From NCBI RefSeq assembly GCF_016462955.1, contig NZ_JAEMSD010000005.1, positions 1 to 49,863 on the forward strand: 49,863 nucleotides of DNA, given 5' to 3'. Below are positions 4,926 to 19,448 of the stretch, piece by piece. The notes under the pieces are model-generated. The model was not told the origin of the DNA. It searched no databases and worked only from the letters and a program-made list of their open reading frames with translations. This DNA is from Bradyrhizobium sp. Its GTDB lineage: Bacteria; Pseudomonadota; Alphaproteobacteria; Rhizobiales; Xanthobacteraceae. Position 1 is the stretch's first letter. Each line of letters starts with the position of its first letter. The translations under genes were made by a program, and so were the position numbers.

Positions 4926-5189
4926 GCCGGCCCAGTCCGGCCTGCCGCGGGTCCGAGGTGTTCCAGGAGCGCATGGATTTCCGAAACTCGTTTTCGGCCC
5001 CGGCGAAACGTCTGTTCACTCCCCGGCCTATAAGGCCCAAAGGTCGCCGACATGGTGCGCGATGCGGTGCTCTCCGCGCCGCTGACCGGCAAGAGATGGT
5101 GATAGACGTTCGCGACGCTGGCGGTCCGTGATGCAGGTGAGGTTCTGCTTCGAGATCGAAGATCTCAGGTCGCGATCCGCATCCCGCGA

Positions 5190-5417
5190 TCACTGACGCG
5201 TCAGCGTCGGCCGGGATGGCACGGGCGGTGGCGGCAGAGACTGCTCGGAATCAAGCACGGCGACCTTGCGGTCGAGCTGCCAGACCTCGACCTTGCCCCG
5301 CCGCGTGAACTGCCGGGCAAAGGTGAGGGCGGAGGAATCGGACGGGGCTTCGAAAGCTTCGGTGGAGCGGAAGACGCCGTTCTCACCGACGAGATAAGCG
5401 CGATATGGCTGCGTCAT
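5190..5417 (-). CDS. Hypothetical protein
   Basis: MTQPYRAYLVGENG...VEVWQLDRKVA; ATGA overlap with upstream gene. Confidence 0.6.
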   Translation of the reverse strand: MTQPYRAYLVGENGVFRSTEAFEAPSDSSALTFARQFTRRGKVEVWQLDRKVAVLDSEQSLPPPPVPSRPTLTRQ

Positions 5418-5614
5418 GTCGGCGCCCTCAGCCCGGGCGAGCGCAGCCAGGCCTCGATCTGCATGGCGGTCTCGTCGCGCCGCGCCTCGCGCAGCAGCAT
5501 GTCGCGGCGGTGCCCCGGCGCCAGCTGGCGCGCTTCGTCACGGCAGCGCGCGGCCTCGTCCGCCAGTCTTTCGGTCAGGGTCTTGATCTGTTTGATACGA
5601 CGCCGCTTCGGCAT
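5414..5614 (-). CDS. Hypothetical protein
   Basis: GAGGGAG RBS; MPKRRRIKQIKTLTERL...WLRSPGLRAPT. Confidence 0.6.
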   Translation of the reverse strand: MPKRRRIKQIKTLTERLADEAARCRDEARQLAPGHRRDMLLREARRDETAMQIEAWLRSPGLRAPT

Positions 5615-5828
5615 GGCGTGCTCCCTCATACGAGTAAGGCGGGAGCGCAATCGGCGTTCTCATCACCGATCTCTGCCACGGGCCTTGCGGTGATGGATTA
5701 AGTCTACGCCCCCTGGCAGTGGAGAGTCACATCAATTGATAACGGGCGCGGGGATTATTTTCGTGGCGAAGCGTGAGCATCTTGAGCCACTTACTCACCT
5801 CGCGCGGCTAGATCCCAAAGTTCACTAT

Positions 5829-5853
5829 TGAACAAAAGCGACTTCAGATCGTT
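5829..5853 (+). promoter_or_regulatory. Sigma-EcfG-like promoter
   Basis: TGAAC-N16-CGTT about 90 nt upstream of the 5946 ORF. Confidence 0.4.
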
Positions 5854-5945
5854 TGCAAGGCATCACCGGCCGAGGCTTTGCCCGTAGGCGTCGGTGGCTG
5901 AGAGACCGAGCGTGCTCCCGCCTATAGAGCGAAGGGAGCCGCACC

Positions 5946-6104
5946 ATGCCGGTGTTTCGGCCGTTGCCTGTCGACCATGAGCAGGCCGAGTACATGCGTC
6001 AAATCGTGCGCCAATGCCGCGAACTGCTGAAGCAGCCGCCGCCCGATACGTTTCTGGGGCGGAAGACGCAGGACGCGCCTCCGAAGGCGGAGGATCACTG
6101 GTAA
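5946..6104 (+). CDS. Small hypothetical protein (52 aa), not in the ORF track
   Basis: GGGAG RBS; MPVFRPLPVDHEQAEYMRQIVRQCRELLKQPPPDTFLGRKTQDAPPKAEDHW. Confidence 0.55.
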   Translation: MPVFRPLPVDHEQAEYMRQIVRQCRELLKQPPPDTFLGRKTQDAPPKAEDHW

Positions 6105-6398
6105 GGGCATGCGTGTGACATCCTCGCGTTGCGCTGGGATCAAAGCACGACGTCGAGCGAACCGTCCAAAAGGCTACGCATCATCACTGTCGCTGACGCC
6201 GAAACGCCGTGTTGCTCGGCCGGCCCTGCTTCGCTCTGCCACGATGGGCACGACTCCAACTCGGCCGGCAGCAGTTAGGAAGCAGGCGCGGGTTGACATT
6301 GTTCCTGTTTTGTTCTAGCGTGCGACCTCAACCTTAAGACGAAAAGCCGGAGCAATTGGCTCGTTTGCGTTCGCTCTTATTTTTTTGCAAGGTGGTCG

Positions 6399-7178
6399 AT
6401 GAGTACCTCGCCTCTCGCATTTGTCTTGTTGAACAAGTGGTCGACGCCGGACACGTCGGCGATCGCCAGGGTCCTTCAGGAGCGGCATCCCGAGTTGGCA
6501 ACGGAGCCGGTGGACAGTGGAGAAGAGCAACCTTCTCACGCGAATTCGCCGCTCATCCGCTGCGGCAACGAGTTGGTTGCGGTCATGTCGATGCCGGCAC
6601 CGATTCCGCAAGACCCGGGACTGTGGGCGCGCGCTGCGCGAACCTGGCCGGAAAGCGAGGCCGTGGCAACGGGCCATCAAGGTCACATCATCGTCTCGCT
6701 GCTTGGAAAAGCTGAGCAGCCGTTGGTCGCCGCCCGCCTTACGACTGCAGTGATCGGTGCGTTGATTGCCACCGTGCCGGAATGTTGCGGCGTGGTGTGG
6801 GCTGGCCGAGTGGCGCGGCCGGCTGACTTATGGCTGGAGGAGTCTCGCTGGTCGCTCGCACCATATCCGGACTATCCTTTCAGGTTATGGGTCGACATCC
6901 TTCCATTTCGGTCAGGCGCAATGGTCGGGGTTATCACGATGGGATTGGCGGCCTTCGTTGGCCGTGAGATCGAGTTCGTGACCGCTAAGCTCGCGCTTCC
7001 GGCGTTGTTCGAGAAGGTAGCAGGGCTTTCCGTATATCTGATCGAGCACGGAAGCGTGGTGAAGGACGGCGATACAATGGGAGCAAGTGCGAGCGAGCGG
7101 ATTGCAGTGCGCTACAAGAACTCTGATATTTTTGAAGGGCCGCCGGTGTTTCATTGTACGGATGAACTCGCGCACTAA
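6399..7178 (+). CDS. DUF4261-like domain protein
   Basis: C-terminal LWVDI...TMGLAAFVGREIE...YLIEHGSVVKDGDTMG pattern. Confidence 0.65.
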   Translation: MSTSPLAFVLLNKWSTPDTSAIARVLQERHPELATEPVDSGEEQPSHANSPLIRCGNELVAVMSMPAPIPQDPGLWARAARTWPESEAVATGHQGHIIVSLLGKAEQPLVAARLTTAVIGALIATVPECCGVVWAGRVARPADLWLEESRWSLAPYPDYPFRLWVDILPFRSGAMVGVITMGLAAFVGREIEFVTAKLALPALFEKVAGLSVYLIEHGSVVKDGDTMGASASERIAVRYKNSDIFEGPPVFHCTDELAH

Positions 7179-7225
7179 TTTCTCGAGGGCGCATCGACTG
7201 TTAGTTGCACCAATGGAAGATCGCT

Positions 7226-7266
7226 TTGACACGTCGGGCAAAACACTGGCAGAATGGCATCATCGA
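7226..7266 (+). repeat. 41-bp dispersed repeat, copy 1 (hairpin 7279-7303 plus T-rich tail follows)
   Basis: TTGACACGTCGGGCAAAACACTGGCAGAATGGCATCATCGA. Confidence 0.95.
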
Positions 7267-7335
7267 AGAACTCGAAACAGGGCTGCGGATCTGCCGCAGT
7301 CTTGTTTGTTTTGGCGGCGCAGAGATGTCCGTGCG

Positions 7336-8859
7336 TTACGCGCCACCCGGCCCGAACCACCGTTTCAACGCATCAGCAAGTCCGCGCTGGCTCCCGTCTC
7401 CTACCCAGGCCACATGTCCATCCGGCCGCACCAGCACGGCGCTCGGCGCAGGGACCGCTCCGATGGCCGGAAGCTGCAAGTCGCCGTCGTAATCGGCGTC
7501 GACTCTTTGCAGGCGGTCCGCCCAGGGCGTGATGTCGATGCCGCCGCGTTTGCCGAAATGGAGCAGCACGCCGCGCGCGCCGTGCAGAAGCGTGAACAGA
7601 CGCAGCTTCTGTCCGTCGACCACGAGATCGAGATCGGGCATGCGGCGTCCTAGCAACGCGTGGCCTTCGCCGAGGTCGTAGCGAATGTCGAGCCCGCTCA
7701 TCATTGCGCCAAAGCGCTGTCGCGGCTCGTCCATGGCGAGCAGCTCGGAGATCACCTCGCGCGCGGCCTTGCGGCCATCGTCGCCGCGGCGGAGCAGGGC
7801 GATCTGCGCCATCGTGTCTTTCAGCACGCGCGCGGCCACGGGATGGCGCTCGGCATGATAGCTGTCGAGCAGGCTGTCCGGCGAGATGCCCTTCACGACC
7901 TGTGCCAGCTTCCAGCCGAGATTGACCGCGTCCTGCACACCGAGGTTGAGGCCCTGGCCGCCGACGGAGTGATGGATGTGCGCGGCATCGCCGGCGAGCA
8001 GCACGCGGCGCTTGCGATAGGAGACGGCCTGCCGCGCCGCGTCGGTGAAGCGGGAGATCCAGGCGGGATTGTGCACGCCGAAATCGGTGCCGTACACGGT
8101 GACGATGGCCTCGCAGAGATCGCGCAAACTGGGCTCGCCGCTGCGCGAGAGCGTGGCTTCCGTCACGACGACCAGCACGCGTCCGCTCTCGGTCTTGCTG
8201 AGGCCGTGGAAGCCGAGAGCGTCATGACGTAGGCCGAAAATCGGTTCCTGCCGCATCTCGACCTCGGCCATGAGGTTGCTGAGCGTCGGATCTGAGCCGG
8301 CAAGGTCGATGCCGGCGGCTTTGCGCACCGCGCTACGGCCGCCGTCGCAGCCGACGAGATAGTCCGCGCGCAAGCGCGCGCCGTCCGACAGGATGATTTC
8401 GACGCCGGTCTCGTCCTGCGCGAAGTCGATCACCTCGCGGTTCCGATAGATCGGCACCTCGAGCTCAGAGGCCCATTCAGCGAGGAGGCGCTCGATGTGG
8501 TTCTGCCGCAGCGCGAGCCCGTAAGGATGGCGGGTGGGGAGATCGCTGATGTCTAGCCTGGTCCAGGCGAAGCCGGCGAGCTGCGTGACCTGGCCTTCGC
8601 GCAGAAAGCGCTCGGCAACGCCGCGCTGATCGAGGATTTCGATGGTGCGCGCGTGCAGTCCGCCGGCGCGGGTTTCGACGATCGCCTGATCGCGACGCCG
8701 TTCGACGATGGCGACGTCGACATGCGCGAGCGCAAGCTCGGCGGCAAGCATCAGCCCGGTCGGGCCGCCGCCGGCAATGATGACCTCATGGCCGGTGGCT
8801 GCTGCGCGTTCTGAACGCGTTCGGCCGTGCGACCGGGACGTTGGAAACGATACAGGCAT
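7336..8859 (-). CDS. FAD-dependent monooxygenase (rifampicin monooxygenase/aromatic hydroxylase-like)
   Basis: GGGPTG, GCDGGRS, LLAGDAAHIH..GGQGLNLG, LVRPDGHVAW; likely start MPVSFP at 8859, not 9378. Confidence 0.85.
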   Translation of the reverse strand: MPVSFPTSRSHGRTRSERAAATGHEVIIAGGGPTGLMLAAELALAHVDVAIVERRRDQAIVETRAGGLHARTIEILDQRGVAERFLREGQVTQLAGFAWTRLDISDLPTRHPYGLALRQNHIERLLAEWASELEVPIYRNREVIDFAQDETGVEIILSDGARLRADYLVGCDGGRSAVRKAAGIDLAGSDPTLSNLMAEVEMRQEPIFGLRHDALGFHGLSKTESGRVLVVVTEATLSRSGEPSLRDLCEAIVTVYGTDFGVHNPAWISRFTDAARQAVSYRKRRVLLAGDAAHIHHSVGGQGLNLGVQDAVNLGWKLAQVVKGISPDSLLDSYHAERHPVAARVLKDTMAQIALLRRGDDGRKAAREVISELLAMDEPRQRFGAMMSGLDIRYDLGEGHALLGRRMPDLDLVVDGQKLRLFTLLHGARGVLLHFGKRGGIDITPWADRLQRVDADYDGDLQLPAIGAVPAPSAVLVRPDGHVAWVGDGSQRGLADALKRWFGPGGA

Positions 8860-8980
8860 GTCGTGACCCTGGAGTGGTTGCTCGGGCCGAGGGGTCTTAC
8901 GCGATCGCCTGGGGCTTGAAGCAAGTCCCTTGCGCACCACATATGAAGATGGGAGATGAGGCTTTGCCGTGTTCGGCGCG

Positions 8981-9021
8981 TTGACACGTCGGGCAAAACA
9001 CTGGCAGAACGGCATCATCGA
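8981..9021 (+). repeat. 41-bp repeat, copy 2 (no complete hairpin after it)
   Basis: One mismatch to copy 1. Confidence 0.95.
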
Positions 9022-9044
9022 GATGCGCCCCGCTTTTGCTGCGC

Positions 9045-9260
9045 TTAGTCGTCCTTCGCCAAATCGCCGGGTTGTGTGGGCAGATCGATGCTGCCGCCCT
9101 CGCCATGCGCGAGATCGCGACCATCGTCCGCCGTCTCGTCGCCGTCTTCGACGATCGCTTGCTGCGTGGGGCGCTCCTCGTCGATGCTCGGCTTTGAGCC
9201 CGCAAGATTTCGCGCCGCCTCGTCTTGCGATTTTCCGAGTGAGGTCGTCTTCATCGTCAT
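9045..9260 (-). CDS. Small acidic hydrophilic protein (71 aa)
   Basis: AGGAGAG RBS; MTMKTTSLGKSQDE...; CGAAC-N16-CGTT at 9306-9282. Confidence 0.6.
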   Translation of the reverse strand: MTMKTTSLGKSQDEAARNLAGSKPSIDEERPTQQAIVEDGDETADDGRDLAHGEGGSIDLPTQPGDLAKDD

Positions 9261-9307
9261 GGCAGTCTCTCCTGATTGTCCAACGCGGCTTGCACGAAAT
9301 CGTTCGT

Positions 9308-9396
9308 TTGACACGTCGGGCAAAACACTGGCAGAATGGCATCATCGAAACGAGTTTCAGTGAGCCCGCGCGGAGCAATCTGCGGCGGGCCTTTTC
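9308..9396 (+). repeat. 41-bp repeat, copy 3, with terminator hairpin
   Basis: Identical to copy 1, then gcccgcgcgg-agcaa-tctgcggcgggc-ctttt. Confidence 0.95.
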
Positions 9397-9437
9397 TTGT
9401 CCGCTTCGCGCGAGACGTATCGCTCACAGCACGAGGT

Positions 9438-9526
9438 TTGACACGTCGGGCAAAACACCGGCAGAATGACATCATCGAGACGAGTTTGGTTGACCCGCGC
9501 GGAACTATCCGCCGCGGGTTTTTTCG
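9438..9526 (+). repeat. 41-bp repeat, copy 4, with terminator hairpin (130 bp after copy 3)
   Basis: Two mismatches, then acccgcgcgg-aactat-ccgccgcgggt-ttttt. Confidence 0.95.
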
Positions 9527-9767
9527 TTCTCGATCTCGCAATCGGACGGCGGCGGCGCATTGCGGCCACGCACTCGTCAAACCTGGAGCGCCGATCGGCG
9601 CGCCGTCGTCCGAACCATTGCTGGCCGTGCACGCGCGAACGTGCCGGCCCGCGGCGCCGGGCGTGCGCCCGCGCCGCTGCGGTCTCCGGGACACGGAGAT
9701 AGGGTTCGCGCCCGAAACGATGGCGCCTCATGGCGCGATCTGCCGCGCATTTTATCGACAAGGAGAG

Positions 9768-9842
9768 ATGATGACCGCCTACCTGATATCGCTGGCCGTC
9801 GCGGGCCTCGTTGCCATCGTGCTATGGGAGACGTTCTCGTGA
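9768..9842 (+). CDS. 24-aa single-TM peptide
   Basis: AGGAGAG RBS; MMTAYLISLAVAGLVAIVLWETFS; GTGA overlap with next gene. Confidence 0.5.
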   Translation: MMTAYLISLAVAGLVAIVLWETFS

Positions 9843-10225
9843 GCGACGACATCATCGAGGGTGAGCTTGAGCCTGCACCGGTCCGGTTGCCCGCGCGCGG
9901 GAGGACGGCGCGCGCGCGTAACCTGACGGAGATCCGCTCGCTCGCGCGCAGCCACACCAGGACGGCCATCAGGGTGCTGGTCGGCGTCATGCGCAGCGAG
10001 GAAGCAACGCCCGCGGCACGTGTCTCGGCCGCCAATGCCATCCTCGATCGCGGTTGGGGCAAGGCCGCACAGCCCGTCGAGAACGGCCAGGACGGCGTGC
10101 TGGAATTGATCCACCGGATCGAGCGCATCATCGTGCATCCGTCGAGCTCGAGTGGCGGTGATGCCGTCACGACGCTCGAGATGTCGGAGATCCCGATCTG
10201 CGATCGCGCCTCGATTGAGCGTTGA
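9839..10225 (+). CDS. Putative phage/GTA terminase small-subunit-like protein
   Basis: EIRSLARSHTRTAIRVLVGVM...ARVSAANAILDRGWGKAAQPV helical motif; its IERIIVHP-coding DNA resembles the sequence overlapping the terL start at 17304. Confidence 0.6.
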   Translation: MSDDIIEGELEPAPVRLPARGRTARARNLTEIRSLARSHTRTAIRVLVGVMRSEEATPAARVSAANAILDRGWGKAAQPVENGQDGVLELIHRIERIIVHPSSSSGGDAVTTLEMSEIPICDRASIER

Positions 10226-10308
10226 CCCGTCGGGCAAAACACGGGCAGAATGGCATCATCGACAGAAGTTGGTGTTGCCCGCGCGGAAGCAATCCGGCGC
10301 GGGTTTTT
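10222..10308 (+). repeat. 41-bp repeat, copy 5, with terminator; left boundary of cassette 1
   Basis: TTGACCCGTCGGGCAAAACACGGGCAGAATGGCATCATCGA-cagaagttggtgtt-gcccgcgcgg...ccggcgcggg-ttttt. Confidence 0.95.
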
Positions 10309-10309
10309 G

Positions 10310-10390
10310 TTTGATGCGGTCGGCAGTTCCTGGTCTGATTATCGCCCGGCCTAGGCACAGCACGTGGCCGCTGCAAGTACGAGGTATTTC
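10310..10390 (-). pseudogene. Eroded 3' remnant of the Cys-rich partner gene seen in cassettes 2 and 3
   Basis: ttgatgc..ttcctggtctg.ttatcg..gcac.tgg.cgctgcaa matches the 3' ends at 13103-13195 and 15337-15425. Confidence 0.55.
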
Positions 10391-10722
10391 ATGAAATTCT
10401 GCACATACGCGACCTTGAATCGTCGAAATGATTTCTGATTCAGTGAGGCCGTCCGACTTTTCAGGAGGGGGCAATGTCGACGAGGAGAACCGGGGCCACA
10501 GCGATCGTAGCTGCATGCGTTGTCGCGACGATTAGACAGACGAGGAACGGGCGCCGGGGAAGAGGCCGATTGTGCCGACCATGGACGCCGGCAACAAGCG
10601 CACGATCGACATGCGCGAGGTGATCAACGGCCTGATGGATGTGCCGAGCGCCGGCAGGATGATAATCTACCCCCGCCCGGATAGCATCTGCGCTTCTCAC
10701 AATCAGCCCACGGGGCGCAATC

Positions 10723-11103
10723 ATGGACACTGAGCAACTCGTGGATGCGATCCCTGCGATCAATAATTTCTCGACGGTCGCATCTATCGCATGCGTGCTT
10801 CCAACATACTTTCTTCGTCTTCAGCCTGCGACTTATAGGCTCGTCCTGACATTGGGGATTGTCTTCGGTCTTTCGACGTGGGTGGTCGGAATGGCAACGG
10901 TCCTTTGGCCGCTTCCGCATCAGTTTGCCCGATGGATTGTGCTCTTTCAGCTCGTTATCTTTTCGCCGTTCGTTATTGTTCTCATTACGATACTTGCATG
11001 CATTAGGCGCGTAACCCGTGTCGGCTTATGGAGCACGGTAGTTCTGGCTTGCGTTATTTTCGACTGGCTTGGAATTTCCGGACTCATCCTGGCTCTTTCG
11101 TAG
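10723..11103 (+). CDS. Multi-TM membrane protein, paralog A (candidate immunity)
   Basis: 126 aa, highly hydrophobic, AT-richer DNA; 81/126 identical to paralog B by manual count. Confidence 0.75.
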   Translation: MDTEQLVDAIPAINNFSTVASIACVLPTYFLRLQPATYRLVLTLGIVFGLSTWVVGMATVLWPLPHQFARWIVLFQLVIFSPFVIVLITILACIRRVTRVGLWSTVVLACVIFDWLGISGLILALS

Positions 11104-11144
11104 TGCCCCCCCATCCGAATTGAAACGCATATCGGAGATGAGTC

Positions 11145-11525
11145 ATGGACGTCGATCAATTCTTAGAAGCGATCCCTGTGACTAATAACGTCTCGACTAT
11201 CGCTTCTATCCTATGCGTGCTTCCAACATACTTTCTTCGTCTTCAGCCTGCGACCTATAGGGTTGTTCTGTCATTGGGGATTGTTTTCGGTCTTTCGATA
11301 TTTGCGATTGCAATGACAGTGGTTCTTTGGCCGTTTTCGCACGAATATCATCGATTGTTTGTATTCCATATATTTGCTTATTCTTCGCCGCTTGTCGTCG
11401 TCCTCATCGCAATACTTGCATGCATCAAGCACGTAACCCATGTCGGCTTATGGAGCACCGTGGTCCTGGTTAGCGTCGTCCTCGACTGGGCTGGAATCTC
11501 AATGCTCATCCTTGCCCTTTCGTAG
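11145..11525 (+). CDS. Multi-TM membrane protein, paralog B (candidate immunity)
   Basis: Tandem duplicate at 422-bp period; GGAG RBS. Confidence 0.75.
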   Translation: MDVDQFLEAIPVTNNVSTIASILCVLPTYFLRLQPATYRVVLSLGIVFGLSIFAIAMTVVLWPFSHEYHRLFVFHIFAYSSPLVVVLIAILACIKHVTHVGLWSTVVLVSVVLDWAGISMLILALS

Positions 11526-11577
11526 AGCCCCGCGACCGTTAAAGCGCCGTACCTGACAAGAAGAGTGAGAGACCGTC

Positions 11578-12854
11578 ATGGCGAGTAAGCTTCCATCCTA
11601 TACGCAAGGTAATCTGGCTCTGGTCCGAGGGATGACGTCTCAGATCGCCGCTGCGGCGGCGAGATACGGAGTGCCTGCCGAAGCGATCGCCGGCGCGTTG
11701 GTTCAAGAGCGGTTTGACCAGACGGACTCTTTGACGAATTACGCGAGGATGGTCGGCTCTTCCCTCGTTGCACGTGAATTCCTTGACAGGAGGTTCATTG
11801 ACGGAAGAGAACGAAACCGATTGCATCCCACGCAAGGAGCCTCCGATATTATTCTGGATAAGTACAACGCCGATCCAAATGCGATGACGGTTGGAAGGGA
11901 CATCAGGAAGAAAATCAAAAATCCTCTGCTCGTCGATTATGGCCCTGCTGGAATGAAGTTCCAGAACGCCATTCGGGCAATTCTCAATAACCCAGATGAT
12001 CCCGCCTTCGCGCAATATGTTAAGGATCTATATTCGGCCGACGTCGCTTTGCATAAAGGCAGCGATCAGGCTCTCATGGCATCAACCATCGGCGCATATT
12101 TGCGTGAAGGTGCTCGAAACTATCAGTCCAACATGAGCGTCAATGGCGATCTGACGACCGGGATCGACGCTTGGACACGTCTGGATCCGTCGACTCGAAA
12201 TGCATTGCTTGTCCAATTCTACAAGCAAGGTCCGACACCGAAGCTCGCGCTGAAAAATTCGATGATCGCGGCGCAGAACGGTGTCCCCTATGTTCCCCGG
12301 ATAGGTGTTGACGGCGCCGGAGCAACGTATCTCGCAAACGAACCTGCGATCATTCGAGCGTTGGCTGATGGGCCAGCTAGCTTCTCCGACCGCTGGAATG
12401 CGATCAACGACCGCGCGGGACGTGACTACCAGCGGTCTGTCAGGAATCCCGCAGATAGGTTCACGAATCCCGCGTCTCGTGCTGACGTGCAGCCATCAGT
12501 CGATCTCAACCCGGGCCGCCCGCATACATTCCGGAGTATCTACGGTATCTGAAAGATGCGGATCGCGTGCCTCGAACCCGTCCCGAAGACCTGCGGGTTC
12601 TGAGGAGAATGCCCGCCGGAAAGTCGGATCGATCCGTCTTCAATTCGAGCGACGGCGCGCCGGTGCCTTTTGTCTCTCCCGACGAGTCGTTTCCGCTCTC
12701 GCCACAAAGCGACTTCGAGAGGCGGTTCGGCTCGTGGCCGGCACCTGCCGGCGGCGTCCTTGCTGGTGTCTATCAAGCTCCGCAAAGCCCATCCGACTCA
12801 CTGAACAACGAAGACTGGTCCGCGATGTGGCGCAGGCGCACTGGCCTGCCTTAG
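11578..12854 (+). pseudogene. Lysozyme/SLT-like putative effector with conserved C-terminal tail, split by a 1-nt deletion near 12514-12518
   Basis: IAAAAARYGVPAEAIAGALVQE resembles the SLT catalytic-Glu helix; PAYIPEYLRYLKDADRVPRTRPEDLR...WSAMWRRRTGLP continues in the shifted frame from 12519. Confidence 0.7.
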
Positions 12855-12872
12855 GGCGAGCGAGCGTATCCA

Positions 12873-12957
12873 TTGTCCATCTTCAAGAGCCCGACGGCCG
12901 AGATCATCGAGCCGCTGCTGATGCCCGCGCGGACAAGGCGTTTACGGCGTGCGCGGC
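12873..12957 (+). pseudogene. Degenerate copy of the terL 5' end
   Basis: MSIFKSPTAEIIEPLLMPAR versus MSILRIPTAKIFEPLLQPVR at 17304; similarity ends at cgcggc in Walker A. Confidence 0.85.
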
Positions 12958-13013
12958 GCTGCGCGCGATACTTGATCTACCAGGCATCTCGATTTGAGAT
13001 TCGGATTGATCGG

Positions 13014-13099
13014 TTGACCCGTCGGGCAAAACACTGGCAGAATGGCGTCATCGACAGAAGTTGGTGTTGCCCGCGCGGTGCAATCCGGCGCGGGCTTTT
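13014..13099 (+). repeat. 41-bp repeat, copy 6, with terminator; left boundary of cassette 2
   Basis: Near-identical to copy 5 including the hairpin. Confidence 0.95.
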
Positions 13100-13114
13100 A
13101 ATTTGATGCCTCGG

Positions 13115-14095
13115 CTAATTCCTGGTCTGCTTGCTGGTCCGGCGCTGCCCGGCATAGGCGCGTTGCACCTGGTCGCTGCAATAGGACAGCTTTCGGCCGC
13201 CGCCGGTGAAATGTCCATCCTTGATGATCCAGAGGATGACGGTCCTGTCATCGATCTTCTTGAACATCAGGTTCTCGCGGTCCTGAATGGTGTTCGGGTC
13301 CTGCACGCTGACGGCTTCAGGGTCTGAAGGAGCTCGCAATGTGCAGGCGGCGTCGACCCTGACGGTGTCGGGAAGCTGAACACGCGTGCGGCGGATATCG
13401 CACTTGTTAGAGGCAGTAACGATCGACTTCCTGGCGAACGCAACGACCGTGTCGCTGAATCTCGTGCAACGGTCCTCGAAATCGGCACCCACCGCGGCGT
13501 AGACGCCATCTTGCGGATGAGCGCTCTTGAGAGTGAGTTCCTCTTCGGCCTTCCGCTTGGCTTCTTCGGCCTTCTGCTTGGCCTCTGCCTTGGCTCTCAG
13601 CGTGGCCTCAGCAAGCGCGCGCTGTGTCTTCAGAGGGCAGTAGGCCGCGCGCCAGGGAGAATCCTTGAGCTTCCCATTCAGGCTCTTCTGGACGGAGATC
13701 GCCGCCGCATCGAGCCGTTTGATGAAAATGACCTCGTTGAATTTTCTGTTCGCCCAGTTGGGATCGCGAGGGTTGAGGTTCTGTGCTAGATTGTAATCGT
13801 CACAGACCATGTCAACCTTCAGCGAGCCCGGGCCGAGGTCGGTGATCTTCTTGACGTCGCAGATCCATTCGTAACCGCTGACCGATTTCCCGCCGAGATC
13901 GATTATCAGGCCGCCGCTTTCATCGCAGTTCGACTGGAAATTCTTGCCAGGTTCGGCGTAGACACCGGGCTTGGGACGCCATTTGTCCAATGTCGGAGCG
14001 AGCGGCTCCTGTGCGAGGGCAGGAAGTGCTAGAGCGACCAGCGTAGCCGCAGAGATAGCCTGACCGAGAATTCGGCGACGAATGACTCTGTTCAC
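13115..14095 (-). CDS. Exported two-repeat Cys-rich protein (candidate immunity/inhibitor)
   Basis: GTG 14095 with GAGGGG RBS (or ATG 14137); signal peptide ending ALA-QE; two domains each starting P..GVYA..G..F...C and ending YC. Confidence 0.8.
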   Translation of the reverse strand: MNRVIRRRILGQAISAATLVALALPALAQEPLAPTLDKWRPKPGVYAEPGKNFQSNCDESGGLIIDLGGKSVSGYEWICDVKKITDLGPGSLKVDMVCDDYNLAQNLNPRDPNWANRKFNEVIFIKRLDAAAISVQKSLNGKLKDSPWRAAYCPLKTQRALAEATLRAKAEAKQKAEEAKRKAEEELTLKSAHPQDGVYAAVGADFEDRCTRFSDTVVAFARKSIVTASNKCDIRRTRVQLPDTVRVDAACTLRAPSDPEAVSVQDPNTIQDRENLMFKKIDDRTVILWIIKDGHFTGGGRKLSYCSDQVQRAYAGQRRTSKQTRN

Positions 14096-14267
14096 GCAAG
14101 TCCCCTCATTCCTCGACGCATGCCGCATGTCTTTCATGAAACCACCGCGCGCGAAATAGTTAATGGATTAACAAGAGTTGAGCAAGCTGTCGCCCGCTGG
14201 CGAAACGGCGAGGACGGCTGCTTGTCAATTCGCGTGAAGCCCTCTCGCTTTCAGAAGGATTCTCAGC

Positions 14268-15089
14268 ATGTGGGATGACATGATGCGACGTATTCTTCAG
14301 CCCGCCAGGGACATCTCGCCTCATGTTACGAGTCCATACGGCGCGGTGACAGGTAGGCCGCGTGGATCAAGCAACCCGCACCGGGGCATCGATTTCAATT
14401 ATGTTGGTGGTCAAAGCGCTCGGCTGAACACGAACCACCCGGAGTTGCGGTCTCCCGTGAATGGCGTCGTTGAGAGCGCCGGTGATGATCAATGGGGAAC
14501 AATCTCAATCAGAGACAATAACGGCTTGCGGCATCAGATCCTGCATACCAACTCTCGGCACGTTAAGGTCGGCGATGTGGTTGCGGCGGGCCAAGTGATT
14601 GGCACGATGGGTAATACCGGTCTTTTTGATATGAAGGGCAATCCAGGGCACCACCACGTCCATTATCAAATCAAGGATCGCGCAGGTAATGTTCTTGACC
14701 CCGGTGCGTTTGCGGATGCACTGGGACCGTTCGATCCAATTCCCGCGCCGGCCTACGTTCCGGAGTATCAGCGGTATCTGCAAAACGCGGATATGGTGCC
14801 GCGGATCCGTCCCGAAGATGTGCGGATCCTGAGGAGGATGCCTGCCGGAAAATCGGATCAATCCGCTTTCAACTCGAATGATCCCGTACCGGTGGTGCCC
14901 GCTATTCCGCCCGATGCTTCGTTTCCATCTTCGCCACAATCCGACTTCGAAAGACGGTACGGAAATTGGCCTTCGCCTTCCGCAGGCGGTGTCTTTGCTG
15001 GCTTCAATCAAGTGCCGCAGCGACAATCCGATACTCCGGACAGCGAGGACTGGTCCGCGATGTGGCGCAGGCGCACCGGCCTGCCTTAG
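14268..15089 (+). CDS. M23-family metallopeptidase with conserved C-terminal tail
   Basis: HRGID (HxxxD), SPVNGVV, VKVGDVVAAGQVIGTMGNTG, HVH (HxH); no signal peptide; ends EDWSAMWRRRTGLP. Confidence 0.9.
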   Translation: MWDDMMRRILQPARDISPHVTSPYGAVTGRPRGSSNPHRGIDFNYVGGQSARLNTNHPELRSPVNGVVESAGDDQWGTISIRDNNGLRHQILHTNSRHVKVGDVVAAGQVIGTMGNTGLFDMKGNPGHHHVHYQIKDRAGNVLDPGAFADALGPFDPIPAPAYVPEYQRYLQNADMVPRIRPEDVRILRRMPAGKSDQSAFNSNDPVPVVPAIPPDASFPSSPQSDFERRYGNWPSPSAGGVFAGFNQVPQRQSDTPDSEDWSAMWRRRTGLP

Positions 15090-15107
15090 GGCGAGCAATC
15101 GCATCTA

Positions 15108-15193
15108 GCGTCCATCCTGAAAATCCCGACGGTCGAGATCTTTAAGCCGTTACTGATACCCGCGCGCTACAAGGCGTTTCCGGCTGACGCGGC
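15108..15193 (+). pseudogene. Second degenerate copy of the terL 5' end (start codon lost)
   Basis: (A)SILKIPTVEIFKPLLIPARYK... Confidence 0.85.
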
Positions 15194-15247
15194 GCTGCGC
15201 TCGATACTCGATCCATCGGGCATCTCGAATTGAGATGGATTGATCGG

Positions 15248-15338
15248 TTGACCCGTCGGGCAAAACACTGGCAGAATGGCATCATCGACAGAAGTTGGTG
15301 TTGCCCGCGCGGATGCAATCCGGTGCGGGTTTTCTTTT
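15248..15338 (+). repeat. 41-bp repeat, copy 7, with terminator; left boundary of cassette 3
   Basis: Near-identical to copies 5 and 6. Confidence 0.95.
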
Positions 15339-15346
15339 GATGCCTT

Positions 15347-16309
15347 CTAATTCCTGGTCTGCTTATCGGCCGGACGCCGCCCGCCATAAGCGCGCTGCAC
15401 CTGGTCGCTGCAATAGGACAGCTTTCGGCCGTCGCCGGTGAAGCGCCCGTTGTCGATGATCCAGAGGATGACGGTCTTGTCGTCGATCTTCTTGAACATC
15501 AGGTTCTCGCGGTCCGGAGTCGTGTCCACATTTTGTACGGTGACGGCGTCTCTGTCTGGAGCCGGCTGCAATTTACAATCGGCGCCCACTCTGACGGTAT
15601 CGGGAAGCTGAACCCGCGTCCTTTCGATCTTGCAAATGTTCGAGGCAGTCGTGATCGACTTTCCGGAGAACGCAACGACGGTGTCGTTGAACTTGGTGCA
15701 GCGCTCCTCGAAATCGGCGCCGGCCGCCGCGTAGACGCCGTCCCGCGGATGGGCTTCCTTGAGGGTCCGCTCCTGGTCGGCCTTCCGCTTTGCTTCCAAC
15801 TTGGCTCTCAGCGTGGCTTCGGCAATCGCGCGCTGTGTCTCCAGAGGGCAGTAGGCGGCACGCCAGGGAGGATCTTTGACCTTCCCGTTCAAACTTTTCT
15901 GAACGGAGATCGTCGTATCATTGATCCGCTTGACGAACATGACTTCGTTGAATTGCCTGTTCTCCCAATTGGGATCGCGAGGATTGAGGTTCTGCGCCAG
16001 ATTGTAGTCGTCGCAGACCATTCCGACCTTCAGCGAGCCTGGCGCGAGATCGATGACCTGTGTGACTTTGCAGCCCCATTCGTAACCGTTGATCGATTTC
16101 TCGCCAAGATCAATGGTAAGATCGCCGCTTTCATTGCAGGACGATTGGAAATTCTTGCCGAGCTCCGCATAGACGCCGGACTTCGGGCGCCATTTGTCGG
16201 CGGTCATCGGAGATGCTTCTTGAGCAACAGCCGACAGATCGGTTGTCGACGTCAGAAGAACGATGATCGCCATCAACGACGCGCCACGTCTTCTCTCATC
16301 AGGGCCCAC
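15347..16309 (-). CDS. Exported two-repeat Cys-rich protein, paralog of 13115..14095
   Basis: Shares DKWRPK.GVYAE.GKNFQS.C, CDDYNLAQNLNPRDPNW, RKLSYCSDQVQRAY, KQTRN. Confidence 0.8.
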   Translation of the reverse strand: MGPDERRRGASLMAIIVLLTSTTDLSAVAQEASPMTADKWRPKSGVYAELGKNFQSSCNESGDLTIDLGEKSINGYEWGCKVTQVIDLAPGSLKVGMVCDDYNLAQNLNPRDPNWENRQFNEVMFVKRINDTTISVQKSLNGKVKDPPWRAAYCPLETQRAIAEATLRAKLEAKRKADQERTLKEAHPRDGVYAAAGADFEERCTKFNDTVVAFSGKSITTASNICKIERTRVQLPDTVRVGADCKLQPAPDRDAVTVQNVDTTPDRENLMFKKIDDKTVILWIIDNGRFTGDGRKLSYCSDQVQRAYGGRRPADKQTRN

Positions 16310-16465
16310 GAATAGCTCCCGCGTTTGGATGTCGAGCCGTTCGCCGACATGTTGCAGCTTTGCGTTCAGAATAGTGGAACAGCCACAAGTTGAGCAAGAG
16401 GGTTCGCTCGTGCGGGGTATCGCGCGCGGGTCTCAAGACTATGCTTCGAAGCATTGGAGAGTGGA

Positions 16466-17317
16466 ATGTCTTGGCATGATGCCTTGCGGCGAATGTTACC
16501 CCCACTTGCGGGTTTCGAGCCTCACACAACGAGCCCATATAATGCGATACGGGACCGTGGCACTTCACCCCATCAGGGCGTAGACGGAAATTACAACGTC
16601 GGCCCGAATGGGCAGCGGGGAATCAATCTGAAGCACCCTGTGTTGCGCTCCCCAGTCGACGGCATCGTGACAAACGCGGGCGAAGGTACGGCCGGTAGAA
16701 TCGCGATCAGAGACGCAAATGGCATATCGCACGAGCTTCTGCACACGCACCGCAGATTTGTCAACGTAGGCGATCCGGTCGTTGCTGGGCAACTGGTCGG
16801 CACGATGGGTAATACAGGCGTGATCCAACCGTATATCGAAAGCGGCGATCATCATCTTCATTATCAGTTGAAGGACCCCGCCGGTCGTGGACTCAATCCT
16901 CAGGCGTACTGGGAGCAGCAAGGACCAATAGATCCAAATCCGGCGGCTCCTGCCTATGTTGACGAGTATCGCCACTATATGCGCGATGCAGGCGCCATTC
17001 CTGCAACGTCTCGAAAAGATGTGAGAGTTCTGAGGAGAATACCCGACCGCGCAATGGAGCGGTCGTCATTCAATTCGAAGCCCGTTGAGGTGCCCTACAG
17101 CGGCTCCAATTCTTCCCGTCCATCCGCTATTGAAAACCATTTCAGGAGGCTTCTTGGACTTTGGCCGCCTTTCTCGGAGCACGACGCCTCTTCCGACTTG
17201 ACCCGAACCCAACAAGGCCAATCCGAGACCTTCGACAACGAAGACTGGTCCGCGATGTGGCGCAGGGCGCACTGGCCTGCCCTAGGGCGAGCGAGCGCAG
17301 CCATTGTCCATCCTTAG
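16466..17317 (+). CDS. M23-family metallopeptidase with conserved tail; +1 frameshift alters the last residues
   Basis: GGAG RBS, MSWHDAL; HQGVD, VGDPVVAGQLVGTMGNTG, HLH; EDWSAMWRR then extra G at 17265-17267. Confidence 0.88.
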   Translation: MSWHDALRRMLPPLAGFEPHTTSPYNAIRDRGTSPHQGVDGNYNVGPNGQRGINLKHPVLRSPVDGIVTNAGEGTAGRIAIRDANGISHELLHTHRRFVNVGDPVVAGQLVGTMGNTGVIQPYIESGDHHLHYQLKDPAGRGLNPQAYWEQQGPIDPNPAAPAYVDEYRHYMRDAGAIPATSRKDVRVLRRIPDRAMERSSFNSKPVEVPYSGSNSSRPSAIENHFRRLLGLWPPFSEHDASSDLTRTQQGQSETFDNEDWSAMWRRAHWPALGRASAAIVHP

Positions 17318-17951
17318 AATTCCAACGGCGAAGATCTTCGAGCCATTGCTGCAACCGGTCCGCTACAAGGGCGTTTATGGCGGACGCGGCTCGGGCAAAT
17401 CGCATTTCTTCGGCGAGCTCCTGGTCGAGACCTGCCAGGCCGAGCGCGGCACGCTCGCGGTCTGTATTCGCGAGGCGCAGCGCACGCTGGCGCAATCGTC
17501 CAAGCGTCTGATAGAAGGCAAGATTGCAAGCCTTCGCCTCGGGCATGGCTTCAAGCTGTTCAGCGACAAGATCGAGACGCCCGGCGACGGGCTCATCATT
17601 TTCCGCGGACTTCAGGATCACACGGCCGACTCGATCAAATCCCTGGAGGGATTTCGCATTGCCTGGATCGACGAGGCGCAATCCTTGAGCGCGCGCAGCC
17701 TCGCGCTGCTGCGGCCGACGATCCGTGCCAAGGACTCCGAGCTGTGGGCGAGCTGGAACGGCCTTCAGCGCAGATTGATGCGTGTCGTCGAGGCAAGGGG
17801 ACGGCGGTTCGGCTGGGACAGCATCGTTTCCGACACAACGGACAACGCAGTATCCGCCAACAACTTCATCCAGGCAGGCTATCGGCTCTTCGAGCCCGAG
17901 ACGCCATGGGCGTGGGCGCATACGCTCTATTGGAGAAAGCGGCTTCGCTGA
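17304..17951 (+). pseudogene. terL: Truncated PBSX-type terminase large subunit (152-aa ATPase part) fused in frame to a GNAT acetyltransferase C-terminus
   Basis: Walker A YGGRGSGKSHF, Walker B AWIDEAQ, ELWASWN; from 17760 GLQRRLMR...SDTTDNAVSANNFIQAGY is GNAT-like; nuclease domain absent. Confidence 0.8.
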
Positions 17952-18034
17952 GCGGGGTTTCCGCCGCACGGAACGTGTCGCATGGAATGGGCAGTACGCG
18001 ATGTAGCGCGACCTCGCATAGTTGGAACGTCCGA

Positions 18035-18069
18035 GGACCCGGCAGCCTGGCGGCTGCGGGGTCCCTTTT
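18035..18069 (+). terminator. Rho-independent terminator
   Basis: ggaccc-g-gcagcc-tggc-ggctgc-g-gggtcc then ctttt. Confidence 0.6.
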
Positions 18070-18179
18070 GCGTACTGAAGCGATGTGGGCGGGGGACTTG
18101 CGAAGACGGAGGCGCCGGGCTTTAAGTTTGCTCTTGCGGGAAATTCGGCGGCCATAAGCCGATGTAAGGAGCGCTATCG

Positions 18180-19448
18180 ATGCCCACCAAACCTCAATTG
18201 CCGGAACGTTCAATGAGAGGGACAGGCGAGCCGGCTGCGCTCGATGGTCTATTGGTCGTCGATTTTACGCGGGTGGTCGCCGGACCGGCCTGTACCCAGA
18301 CGCTTGCCGATTTCGGCGCGCACGTCATCAAGATCGAGAATCCCGACGGCGGCGACGACACGCGCGCCTACGAGCAGGCCGAAATCGGCGGCGAAAGCGC
18401 CGCCTTTCTCAGCCTGAACCGCAACAAGCGTGGCATTGCGCTCGATCTTGCCGTGCCGGAGGCCCGCCAGATCGCGATCGACCTGATCCGCAAGGCGGAT
18501 GTGGTCGTCGAGAATTTCTCGAGCGGGGTCATGAAGAAGTTCGGGCTCGACTATGAGTCGGTCGCGCCGCTCAATCCACGGCTAGTGTATTGCTCGATCT
18601 CCGCCTACGGACGCACTGGACCGTTCGCCTCGCGGCCTGGCTTCGATCCCATCACGCAGGCGGAAAGCGGCTTCATGTCGCTCAACGGATTTGCCGACGG
18701 CCCGGCGGTGCGCACCGGCCCGCCCATCGTGGACATGGCGACCGGGATGTCCGCCTGCAACGCCATTCTGCTTGCGCTGCTGGCACGCGACCGGCTCGGC
18801 CGCGGGCAGCATGTCGAGGTCGCCCTGTTCGACGTCGCGATCGGAATGACCGGTTTCTATGGGATGGCCTACCTCATCAACGGCGAAAACCCCGGTCGCT
18901 TCGGGAATTCGCCGAGCGGGTCACCCACGGTCGGGGTCTATGAGGCCTCTGACGGACCGCTCTACATGGCCTGCGCCAACGACCGGCTCTACCGACGGCT
19001 CGTGGTCGAGGTGCTGAACCGGCCCGATCTCATTACCGATCCGCAGTTTGCGACGCGCAAGGCCCGTTCGGAGAACAAGGAGCTCCTGCGGGCTGCCATT
19101 GCGGATGTTTTCGCGAGCGATACCCTCGAGAACTGGATGGCAAAGATGAAGCTGGCCAATATTCCGGTGGGCTATCTCCGGACAGTCGAAGAGGGCTTCA
19201 ATGCGCCCGAGGCTCGTGAGCGCCATCGCCTGAGCCGGATTCCGCACCCCACGGCTGAATGGGTGCCGAACATCGAGCCGCCGATCTTGATGAGCCTGAC
19301 CGGCGCGATCGATCCCGTTGCGGCCCCGCTGTTGGGCGAGCACACGAAGCAAGTCCTGCAGGATACGCTCGGCTACGACGAACGTCGGATCGCGGAGTTC
19401 GCCGAGAAAGGCGCCTTTGGCGCGGTCAAGCCCCCGACTTCGGCTTGA
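18180..19448 (+). CDS. CaiB/BaiF family III CoA-transferase
   Basis: LDGLLVVDFTRVVAGP, LADFGAHVIKIE, NRNKRGI, ADVVVENF, GFD catalytic Asp. Confidence 0.92.
   Translation: MPTKPQLPERSMRGTGEPAALDGLLVVDFTRVVAGPACTQTLADFGAHVIKIENPDGGDDTRAYEQAEIGGESAAFLSLNRNKRGIALDLAVPEARQIAIDLIRKADVVVENFSSGVMKKFGLDYESVAPLNPRLVYCSISAYGRTGPFASRPGFDPITQAESGFMSLNGFADGPAVRTGPPIVDMATGMSACNAILLALLARDRLGRGQHVEVALFDVAIGMTGFYGMAYLINGENPGRFGNSPSGSPTVGVYEASDGPLYMACANDRLYRRLVVEVLNRPDLITDPQFATRKARSENKELLRAAIADVFASDTLENWMAKMKLANIPVGYLRTVEEGFNAPEARERHRLSRIPHPTAEWVPNIEPPILMSLTGAIDPVAAPLLGEHTKQVLQDTLGYDERRIAEFAEKGAFGAVKPPTSA

What the first reader, a model, noticed from the sequence alone, without database searches (positions are those of the whole stretch)
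9839..17951. Tandem array of hydrolase-plus-partner cassettes inserted between terminase small and large subunit genes: candidate new polymorphic effector-immunity system
Seen: three units (10222-13013, 13014-15247, 15248-17303) with the same layout: 41-bp repeat plus terminator, envelope-targeted partner gene(s), an enzyme gene with a shared C-terminal tail, then terS-end/terL-start sequence. The N-terminal enzyme domain varies (SLT/lysozyme-like, M23, M23) and the partner type changes with it (membrane pair versus Cys-rich exported protein). The enzymes lack signal peptides. Established: M23 and SLT domains cut peptidoglycan, and antibacterial effectors of this kind are encoded beside envelope-located immunity genes. 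Inference: an expandable toxin-immunity locus that uses a phage/GTA packaging operon as its insertion site; delivery could be by a secretion system or by the particle.
Basis: partly seen in the sequence, partly recalled or inferred. Interest (0 to 1): 0.92.

Follow-up and report, generated by a model that had tools for sequence, protein, structure and literature searches.

The report
Domesticated podophage carrying swappable toxin cassettes
Three swappable cassettes, each a predicted cell-wall-cutting enzyme beside a likely immunity gene, sit at the front of a tamed short-tailed-phage gene cluster inherited across Bradyrhizobium, which likely uses the particle to inject toxins into rival bacteria, although this strain has lost the particle genes.

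Summary
The window is a Bradyrhizobium contig. Three cassettes lie between a terS-like gene and terL: a lysozyme/SLT-fold protein with two membrane proteins, and two M23 peptidases each with an exported double-barrel partner. In 79 related loci this interval holds 0-3.8 kb, and each enzyme type keeps its partner type (M23-barrel 20 of 25). In relatives, terS-terL opens a complete podophage virion-and-lysis cluster at a fixed chromosomal site. It has no integrase or replication genes, is vertically inherited and is under purifying selection (capsid dN/dS 0.05). Toxin-immunity pairs (WHH+SUKH, AHH+Imm11, SLT+Ivy) fill many of its gene junctions. The phage's two large ejection proteins are missing, and some cargo carries their leader. 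Four of five complete elements are in genomes with neither T6SS nor T4SS markers. Best reading: a domesticated particle that delivers polymorphic toxins (0.5); toxicity and delivery are untested. This copy is a relic: particle genes are deleted and two of three enzymes are frameshifted. The same deletion junctions recur independently across the genus. Not found in ten literature searches.

The parts
6399..7178 (+). DUF4261 protein, left over from the upstream AHH-nuclease/Imm11/DUF4261 cassette of relatives
   Evidence: Pfam E 1e-10; in relatives followed by Imm11 and an AHH nuclease
7226..9478 (+). four upstream copies of the 41-bp repeat (7226, 8981, 9308, 9438)
9839..10225 (+). terS-like gene (likely terminase small subunit) with a new 3' end
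   Evidence: phrog_15261 E 4e-12, phrog_10899 terS E 0.003; lies within 60 nt of terL in 35 of 79 loci
10222..10317 (+). unit 1 repeat (sigma70-like TTGACC-18-CAGAAT) plus hairpin and T-run
10301..10375 (-). remnant of the 3' end of a barrel-partner gene (possible 5' exchange anchor)
   Evidence: repeat families D11 and D20
10723..11103 (+). membrane partner m1 (candidate immunity to enzyme 1)
   Evidence: 3 hydrophobic segments; upstream of the SLT-fold enzyme in 3 of 3 loci
11145..11525 (+). membrane partner m2, duplicate of m1 (64% identical)
11578..12854 (+). enzyme 1: lysozyme/SLT-fold domain; frameshift near 12,515 separates it from the shared tail
   Evidence: frameshift also in public contigs
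12856..12957 (+). decayed terS-end/terL-start copy
13014..13109 (+). unit 2 repeat plus hairpin
13115..14137 (-). partner 2: signal-like N-terminus, two lipocalin-like barrels (candidate M23 inhibitor)
14268..15089 (+). enzyme 2: M23 peptidase plus shared tail ending EDWSAMWRRRTGLP; the only intact enzyme gene
15093..15193 (+). decayed terS-end/terL-start copy
15248..15343 (+). unit 3 repeat plus terminator-like hairpin
15347..16309 (-). partner 3: double-barrel protein, 72% identical to partner 2
16454..17317 (+). enzyme 3: M23 peptidase (49% identical to enzyme 2); tail end frameshifted near 17,266
17304..17758 (+). PBSX-type terL codons 1-152, truncated by deletion
   Evidence: Terminase_3 E 1e-18; TIGR01547 below cut-off
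17759..17951 (+). 3' half of the GNAT-type gene that ends the element in relatives, fused in frame to terL
   Evidence: GNAT label recalled from sequence, no library hit

Best explanation
The three cassettes are likely toxin-immunity pairs at the front of a domesticated short-tailed-phage gene cluster that Bradyrhizobium inherits at one chromosomal site; in relatives that keep the particle genes the enzymes would be loaded into the particle and injected into competing bacteria, while this strain has deleted those genes. Shown: the layout, the variable content, the strict enzyme-partner pairing, a complete head-tail-lysis gene set without integrase or replication genes in 8 relatives, purifying selection on it, and loss of the two large ejection proteins. 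Inferred: a few cells express the cluster and lyse. Signal-less enzymes are packed into the head through short amphipathic tags, either an ejection-protein leader or the conserved C-terminal tails. The tail injects them into the periplasm of a neighbour, where M23 and SLT domains cut peptidoglycan. Exported barrel or membrane partners protect kin. Cassettes are added and swapped by recombination between shared ends (repeat plus partner 3' end; tail plus terL start), which gives tandem arrays, orphan partners and broken enzymes.
For: Interval: under 60 nt in 35, 60-300 nt in 10, and 300-3,824 nt in 34 of 79 loci; the closest relative L038 has the empty site. Pairing: M23 with an upstream divergent barrel gene 20 of 25, SLT60-Ivy 8 of 8, WHH-SUKH 6 of 6, SLT1-membrane 3 of 3. 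Full-length in one ORF: 4 of 15 M23 traces against 11 of 20 barrel traces, plus 3 single-barrel forms. Confinement: 22 of 22 tail-A hits and 19 of 19 hits of this M23 subfamily in 121 genomes lie within about 7 kb of this terL. Particle: 8 of 8 complete elements keep terL, portal, capsid, adaptor, gp10-like, first ejection protein and a fibre at 46-80% identity to phage OP596614, and lack its integrase, recombinases and ejection proteins 2 and 3. dN/dS: capsid 0.053, terL 0.077, gp10-like 0.045, host control 0.069, M23 0.10, barrel 0.23, tail 0.37. A profile of 5 cargo leaders ranks the phage's ejection-protein-2 N-terminus first of 2,911 proteins (iE 5e-4; leaders picked by eye). TssC in 0 of 5 and VirB4/TrbE in 1 of 5 complete-element genomes. 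A podophage ejectosome protein carries SLT and M23 domains (PMC12002296 passages). M23-barrel complex: score 0.37 against best control 0.00, runs agree in at least 92% of contacts, partner pLDDT at least 82; weak support only, since at 0.60 or under the mark was passed by 18 of 157 solved complexes and by both mismatches that passed.
Against: No experiment shows toxicity, protection, particle production or loading. The window's tail A has no match in the phage, so its loading is inferred from position only. Without ejection proteins 2 and 3 it is unclear how nucleases would reach a cytoplasm. In 19 genomes without this capsid, an open frame of 500 codons or more still ends in tail B, so some toxins persist without the particle. 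M23 genes are also broken in capsid-bearing genomes. The capsid is in only about 11 of 120 genus genomes against terL in 60. G000 and G036 have VirB4/TrbE genes.
Confidence: 0.5

Rival explanations
1. The cluster is a gene transfer agent or a lysis device. The toxin-immunity pairs are passengers: enzymes are released freely on lysis, or the pairs act as addiction modules that hold a costly element in the chromosome.
For: Terminase and portal are kept under purifying selection, which fits DNA packaging. B. japonicum S06B makes podophage-like particles whose DNA maps evenly over the host genome (PMC10127595 passages); that this element makes them was not tested. Tail-B nucleases persist without the capsid.
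Against: The two large ejection proteins, which build the DNA conduit in podophages (recalled for these two; PMC8402733 abstract for P22), are missing in 8 of 8. Free M23/SLT enzymes would face an outer membrane. Exported immunity-like partners point to attack from outside the cell.
Confidence: 0.25
2. The enzymes are effectors of a secretion system encoded elsewhere (C-terminal signal, as in bacteria-killing T4SS), and the phage locus is only an insertion hot spot.
For: Variable N-terminal hydrolase, conserved basic C-terminus and upstream exported partner resemble X-T4SS effector layout (recalled). G000 has VirB4/TrbE genes.
Against: No XVIPCD or other secretion domain in Pfam. No TssC in G000 or in 5 of 5 complete-element genomes, and no VirB4/TrbE in 4 of 5. 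Tail A and this M23 subfamily occur only at this locus.
Confidence: 0.12
3. An old prophage decaying neutrally, with moron-type cargo of no coordinated function or acting only in phage exclusion.
For: Most genomes have lost the module, and many cassettes are frameshifted, including two of three here.
Against: Host-like dN/dS on virion genes. Deletions map to separate tips beside full-length sisters, so ancestors kept the module. Strict enzyme-partner pairing with known immunity families.
Confidence: 0.13

Closest known systems
MuF polymorphic toxins / 'phage DNA packaging system' toxin delivery (Jamet 2017 PMC5576092, abstract read; Zhang 2012 PMC3482391, passages read)
   Same: Polymorphic toxin-immunity pairs in the packaging module, proposed to travel in a capsid.
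   Different: No MuF domain; the toxin domain is N-terminal with a conserved C-terminal tail; many cassettes at many junctions; fixed, vertically inherited, integrase-free locus; envelope-acting hydrolases with exported partners.
Bradyrhizobium temperate podophage ppBeUSDA76-2 / ppUSDA76Be-2 (OP596614; PMC10127595 passages)
   Same: Same virion gene set, including the split portal; capsid 68%, terL 71-74% identical.
   Different: The phage has integrase and recombination genes, contiguous structural genes, three ejection proteins and no such cassettes. The element lacks these genes, has the scaffold-like gene moved behind the first ejection gene, and is filled with cassettes.
Gene transfer agents (RcGTA, BaGTA; recalled)
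   Same: Chromosomally fixed virion cluster without replication genes, inherited vertically under purifying selection.
   Different: Podophage capsid (phrog_1328/DUF5309) with PBSX-type terminase; toxin-immunity cargo; DNA transfer not shown.
Tse3-Tsi3 (T6SS muramidase) and X-T4SS peptidoglycan-hydrolase effectors
   Same: Signal-less cell-wall hydrolase with an envelope partner; Tse3 is the top fold match of enzyme 1 (Z 9.9, tied with MltE); the barrel resembles the T6SS immunity-complex chain 9jdd_B (Z 8.2).
   Different: No T6SS marker in these genomes and no XVIPCD; linked to virion genes instead.

Membership tests
Polymorphic toxin-immunity system (general) | Variable toxin domain on a shared trafficking part | tested here: met
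   Tail A joined to M23, SLT-fold and a third domain across loci
Polymorphic toxin-immunity system (general) | Adjacent cognate partner that changes with the toxin; orphan partners | tested here: met
Polymorphic toxin-immunity system (general) | Toxicity and neutralisation by the partner | not testable with these tools
   only a weak predicted complex
MuF toxins | MuF domain (PF04233) in the packaging module | tested here: not met
   1 hit in 5 complete-element genomes, on another contig; none in window or cargo scans
MuF toxins | Encoded by temperate phages or prophages with C-terminal toxin | tested here: not met
   no PF00589 hit at the element in 5 of 5 genomes; window enzymes have N-terminal catalytic domains
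Gene transfer agent | Fixed virion cluster lacking integrase/replication, vertically inherited, purifying selection | tested here: met
   relatives only; deleted in the window's genome
Gene transfer agent | Packages and transfers random host DNA | not testable with these tools
   needs particle sequencing and marker transfer
T6SS effector | T6SS in the genome, or PAAR/VgrG link | tested here: not met
   no TssC in G000 (88% complete) or in 5 genomes 97-100% complete
X-T4SS effector | C-terminal XVIPCD domain | tested here: not met
   no such Pfam hit in window enzymes or 71 cargo and element proteins
M23 peptidase | PF01551 with HxxxD and HxH zinc ligands | tested here: met
Lysozyme/SLT superfamily (enzyme 1) | Lysozyme-like fold with a glutamate at the end of the catalytic helix | tested here: inconclusive
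   top 11 VIA rows are lysozyme-like, best Z 9.9, rmsd 3.7 over 182 residues; Foldseek found nothing at E<=0.001; conserved QE at the end of helix 34-49, catalytic role inferred

The most novel reading that the evidence does not exclude
Bradyrhizobium has domesticated a whole podophage into a protein-injection weapon: a capsid-and-tail particle whose DNA-conduit proteins were replaced by a rotating set of tagged toxins with cognate immunity genes, maintained across the genus and repeatedly shed by deletions at the same few junctions.
Probability: 0.35. Interest if true: 0.93.

Novelty: new variant of a known kind. Interest (0 to 1): 0.82.

Why it matters
Capsid-based toxin delivery has been proposed from genomes for MuF systems (PMC3482391, PMC5576092). 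This locus offers a vertically inherited, integrase-free candidate in culturable strains, with defined cargo, candidate loading tags and natural deletion controls, so the idea becomes directly testable. It could shape competition among nodulating and soil bradyrhizobia, including inoculants. It also points to a new family of candidate M23 inhibitors and to an unexplained, precisely recurring deletion.

Tried and rejected
Assembly artefact rejected: contigs of 8 of 8 laid runs cover the enzyme 1 frameshift without a gap. The enzyme 3 site shows no gap either, but the covering contigs begin only about 30 bases before it. Rfam: 0 matches in 5000-18500, so the repeat is no known RNA family; its promoter-like shape is only a consensus match (7 sites against 4.0 +/- 2.5 in shuffles). 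Foldseek PDB gave nothing at E<=0.001 for enzyme 1 or the barrel partner. Atlas look-ups gave only unnamed clusters. No relative of enzyme 2 was found in viral contigs by pattern, although loci hold M23 homologues, so that blank is a sensitivity limit. Profiles of tails A, B and C found nothing in the phage proteome. A portal C-terminal extension plus the next gene start had no blastn match among phages. The Imm11 query was partly out of frame, so AHH-Imm11 counts from it are not used. In one search pairs with saturated dS were dropped (M23: 9 of 21 pairs kept). Scan look-ups by place, sequence and words found no look-alike. Ten paper searches listed no description of this element; the library covers open-access papers only, and the supplements of PMC10127595 were listed, not read.
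Full report
Source. The window is G000:C171, an 88%-complete, 64% GC assembly. Its terL piece is 84-98% identical to 80 loci, mostly named Bradyrhizobium. Near-identical DNA is held by 16 runs at half the sampled words or more, several from water samples.

Observation. Three units of 2.8, 2.2 and 2.1 kb each begin with the 41-bp repeat and a hairpin and end with a shared tail and a terS-end/terL-start copy. GC falls to 51-59% against about 64% outside. Unit 1 has two 126-aa membrane proteins and an enzyme without library hits. Its model is lysozyme-like: Tse3 Z 9.9, MltE 9.5, phiKZ gp144 8.2. Units 2 and 3 have M23 peptidases with intact zinc motifs, each divergent from an exported protein modelled as two lipocalin-like barrels (Tp0751 Z 10.8, 9jdd_B Z 8.2). 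Enzyme 1 is frameshifted before its tail, enzyme 3 within its tail end, and terL stops at codon 152 in a fusion with a GNAT-type gene. Public contigs carry the same breaks.

Variability. In 79 of 80 loci the terS-terL gap could be measured: 35 are under 60 nt, 10 are 60-300 nt, and 34 are 300-3,824 nt; the window has about 7.1 kb. The nearest relative, L038, has repeat, hairpin and terL start with nothing between. Enzyme and partner types covary: M23-barrel 20 of 25, SLT1-membrane 3 of 3, SLT60-Ivy 8 of 8, WHH-SUKH 6 of 6. In this gap, 4 of 15 M23 traces are full-length with tail, against 11 of 20 barrel traces. Kin are not independent, so these are descriptions, not tests.

The larger element. 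Downstream of terL, relatives carry a split portal, capsid (phrog_1328), adaptor, gp10-like protein, a DNA ejection protein, scaffold-like gene, fibres, and lysin- and holin-like genes (the last two labels rest on position and recall), then GNAT and a CoA-transferase-like host gene. The nearest cultured phage is the temperate podophage OP596614 (PMC10127595 passages). Eight complete elements keep its head and tail genes but show no tblastn hit to its integrase, recombinases or two large ejection proteins; these proteins diverge fast, but the gene lists seen show no large replacement (output partly cut). Cassettes sit at many junctions. Pfam names WHH nuclease with SMI1/KNR4, AHH nuclease with Imm11, Ivy, more M23s and an ART domain among 71 proteins scanned. 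Three C-terminal tails recur. Tail A and this M23 subfamily were found only beside this terL in 121 genomes (22 of 22 and 19 of 19 hits; this sample overlaps the 80 loci). A terL tree groups the named photosynthetic and japonicum-group strains separately, which fits vertical descent. Virion genes have dN/dS 0.045-0.077, like a host gene.

Delivery. Five complete-element genomes lack TssC, four lack VirB4/TrbE, none has MuF or an integrase at the element. Several cargo proteins near the ejection genes start with a leader that matches the N-terminus of the phage's lost ejection protein 2 (best of 2,911 proteins, iE 5e-4; leaders chosen by eye after seeing that protein). M23 and SLT domains occur in a podophage pre-ejectosome. 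These points favour the particle. Against it: tail A has no phage match; tail-B frames of 500 codons or more persist in 19 genomes without the capsid; M23 genes decay with or without the capsid; and nothing was tested at the bench. The predicted M23-barrel complex is weak support only (0.37 against 0.00).

Loss. terL is in 60 of 120 genus genomes and this capsid in about 11 (12 hits at 81% identity or more, one of them beside a second, 63%-identical terL). G000 has no hit for portal or capsid, and its deletion junction is on the contig itself. Junctions recur. terL codon about 271 joined to codon about 51 of the last holin-like gene occurs in 16 of 80 loci. On a tree of terL codons 10-270 (16 deleted and 17 chosen full-length loci) it needs 14 changes, 10 forced by well-supported branches; one clade is rejected at p 2e-39. 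The window's own junction is shared by L039, L052, L069, L080 and G002, while four near-identical runs hold 803 more bases there and three hold the window's form. The junctions share only a few bases; the cause is unexplained.

Comparison. It works like a polymorphic toxin system with the capsid route proposed for MuF toxins (PMC3482391 passages; PMC5576092 abstract), but it fails MuF membership. It has the genomic marks of a gene transfer agent, with DNA transfer untested. A B. japonicum strain is reported to make podophage-like particles with even host-DNA coverage (PMC10127595 passages); a link to this element is a lead only. Ten searches of an open-access library listed no description of the element.

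Verdict. A real, variable effector-partner array that is the relic front end of an apparently undescribed domesticated podophage carrying toxin-immunity cassettes. Particle delivery 0.5; GTA or lysis passenger 0.25; neutral decay 0.13; secretion system 0.12. Interest 0.82.

Noticed in passing
L041, L043, L045, L046, L048, L050, L053, L058, L059, L068, L091, L097, L099, L101, L104, L106 (about 813 nt after terL start): The same in-frame deletion joins terL to the last holin-like gene in 16 loci, arising at least 10 times independently at a site with only a few shared bases; the crossover codon varies (E-L-R, E-I-R, E-M-R). Other junctions recur too (terL152::GNAT80, portal-C111::F30, portal-N130::holin-like). 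Mechanism unexplained.
   Followed up: partly
L023:2361-4875; L070:15361-16353; L222:8443-11053: Portal C-terminal halves with an added end (such as YVSDPKRPGKYLLVVHH in L023) are followed by proteins starting with repeated SLVPV(D/E)H(Q/D)PF motifs, some of them WHH nucleases with SUKH partners; possibly a docking pair that ties toxin to portal.
   Followed up: partly
L027:1379-3594; L206:19031-21246: The portal is split into two adjacent genes even in the true phage and in the G024 prophage, and the element uses the split as a cassette slot.
   Followed up: no
window 6399-7178; L018:4559-8286: Upstream of terS, relatives carry DUF4261, Imm11 and an AHH nuclease with tail B; the window keeps only DUF4261. 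The nuclease frame stays open in many genomes without the capsid.
   Followed up: partly
window 7226-15288 and 16 other contigs of G000: The 41-bp repeat belongs to a dispersed family (23 copies with up to 8 mismatches) shaped like a sigma70 promoter; the closest copies cluster here and often follow effector stop codons in relatives. No Rfam match.
   Followed up: partly
L078:11330-13443; L094:9585-10267; L114:12714-13304; L092:12320-13149: Genes that look like type II toxin-antitoxin pairs (labels recalled from sequence) also sit between terL and portal in some loci.
   Followed up: no
L049:6052-6399; L207:16207-16740: A second, about 50%-identical terS-like gene lies 3-6 kb upstream of terS in several relatives.
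   Followed up: no
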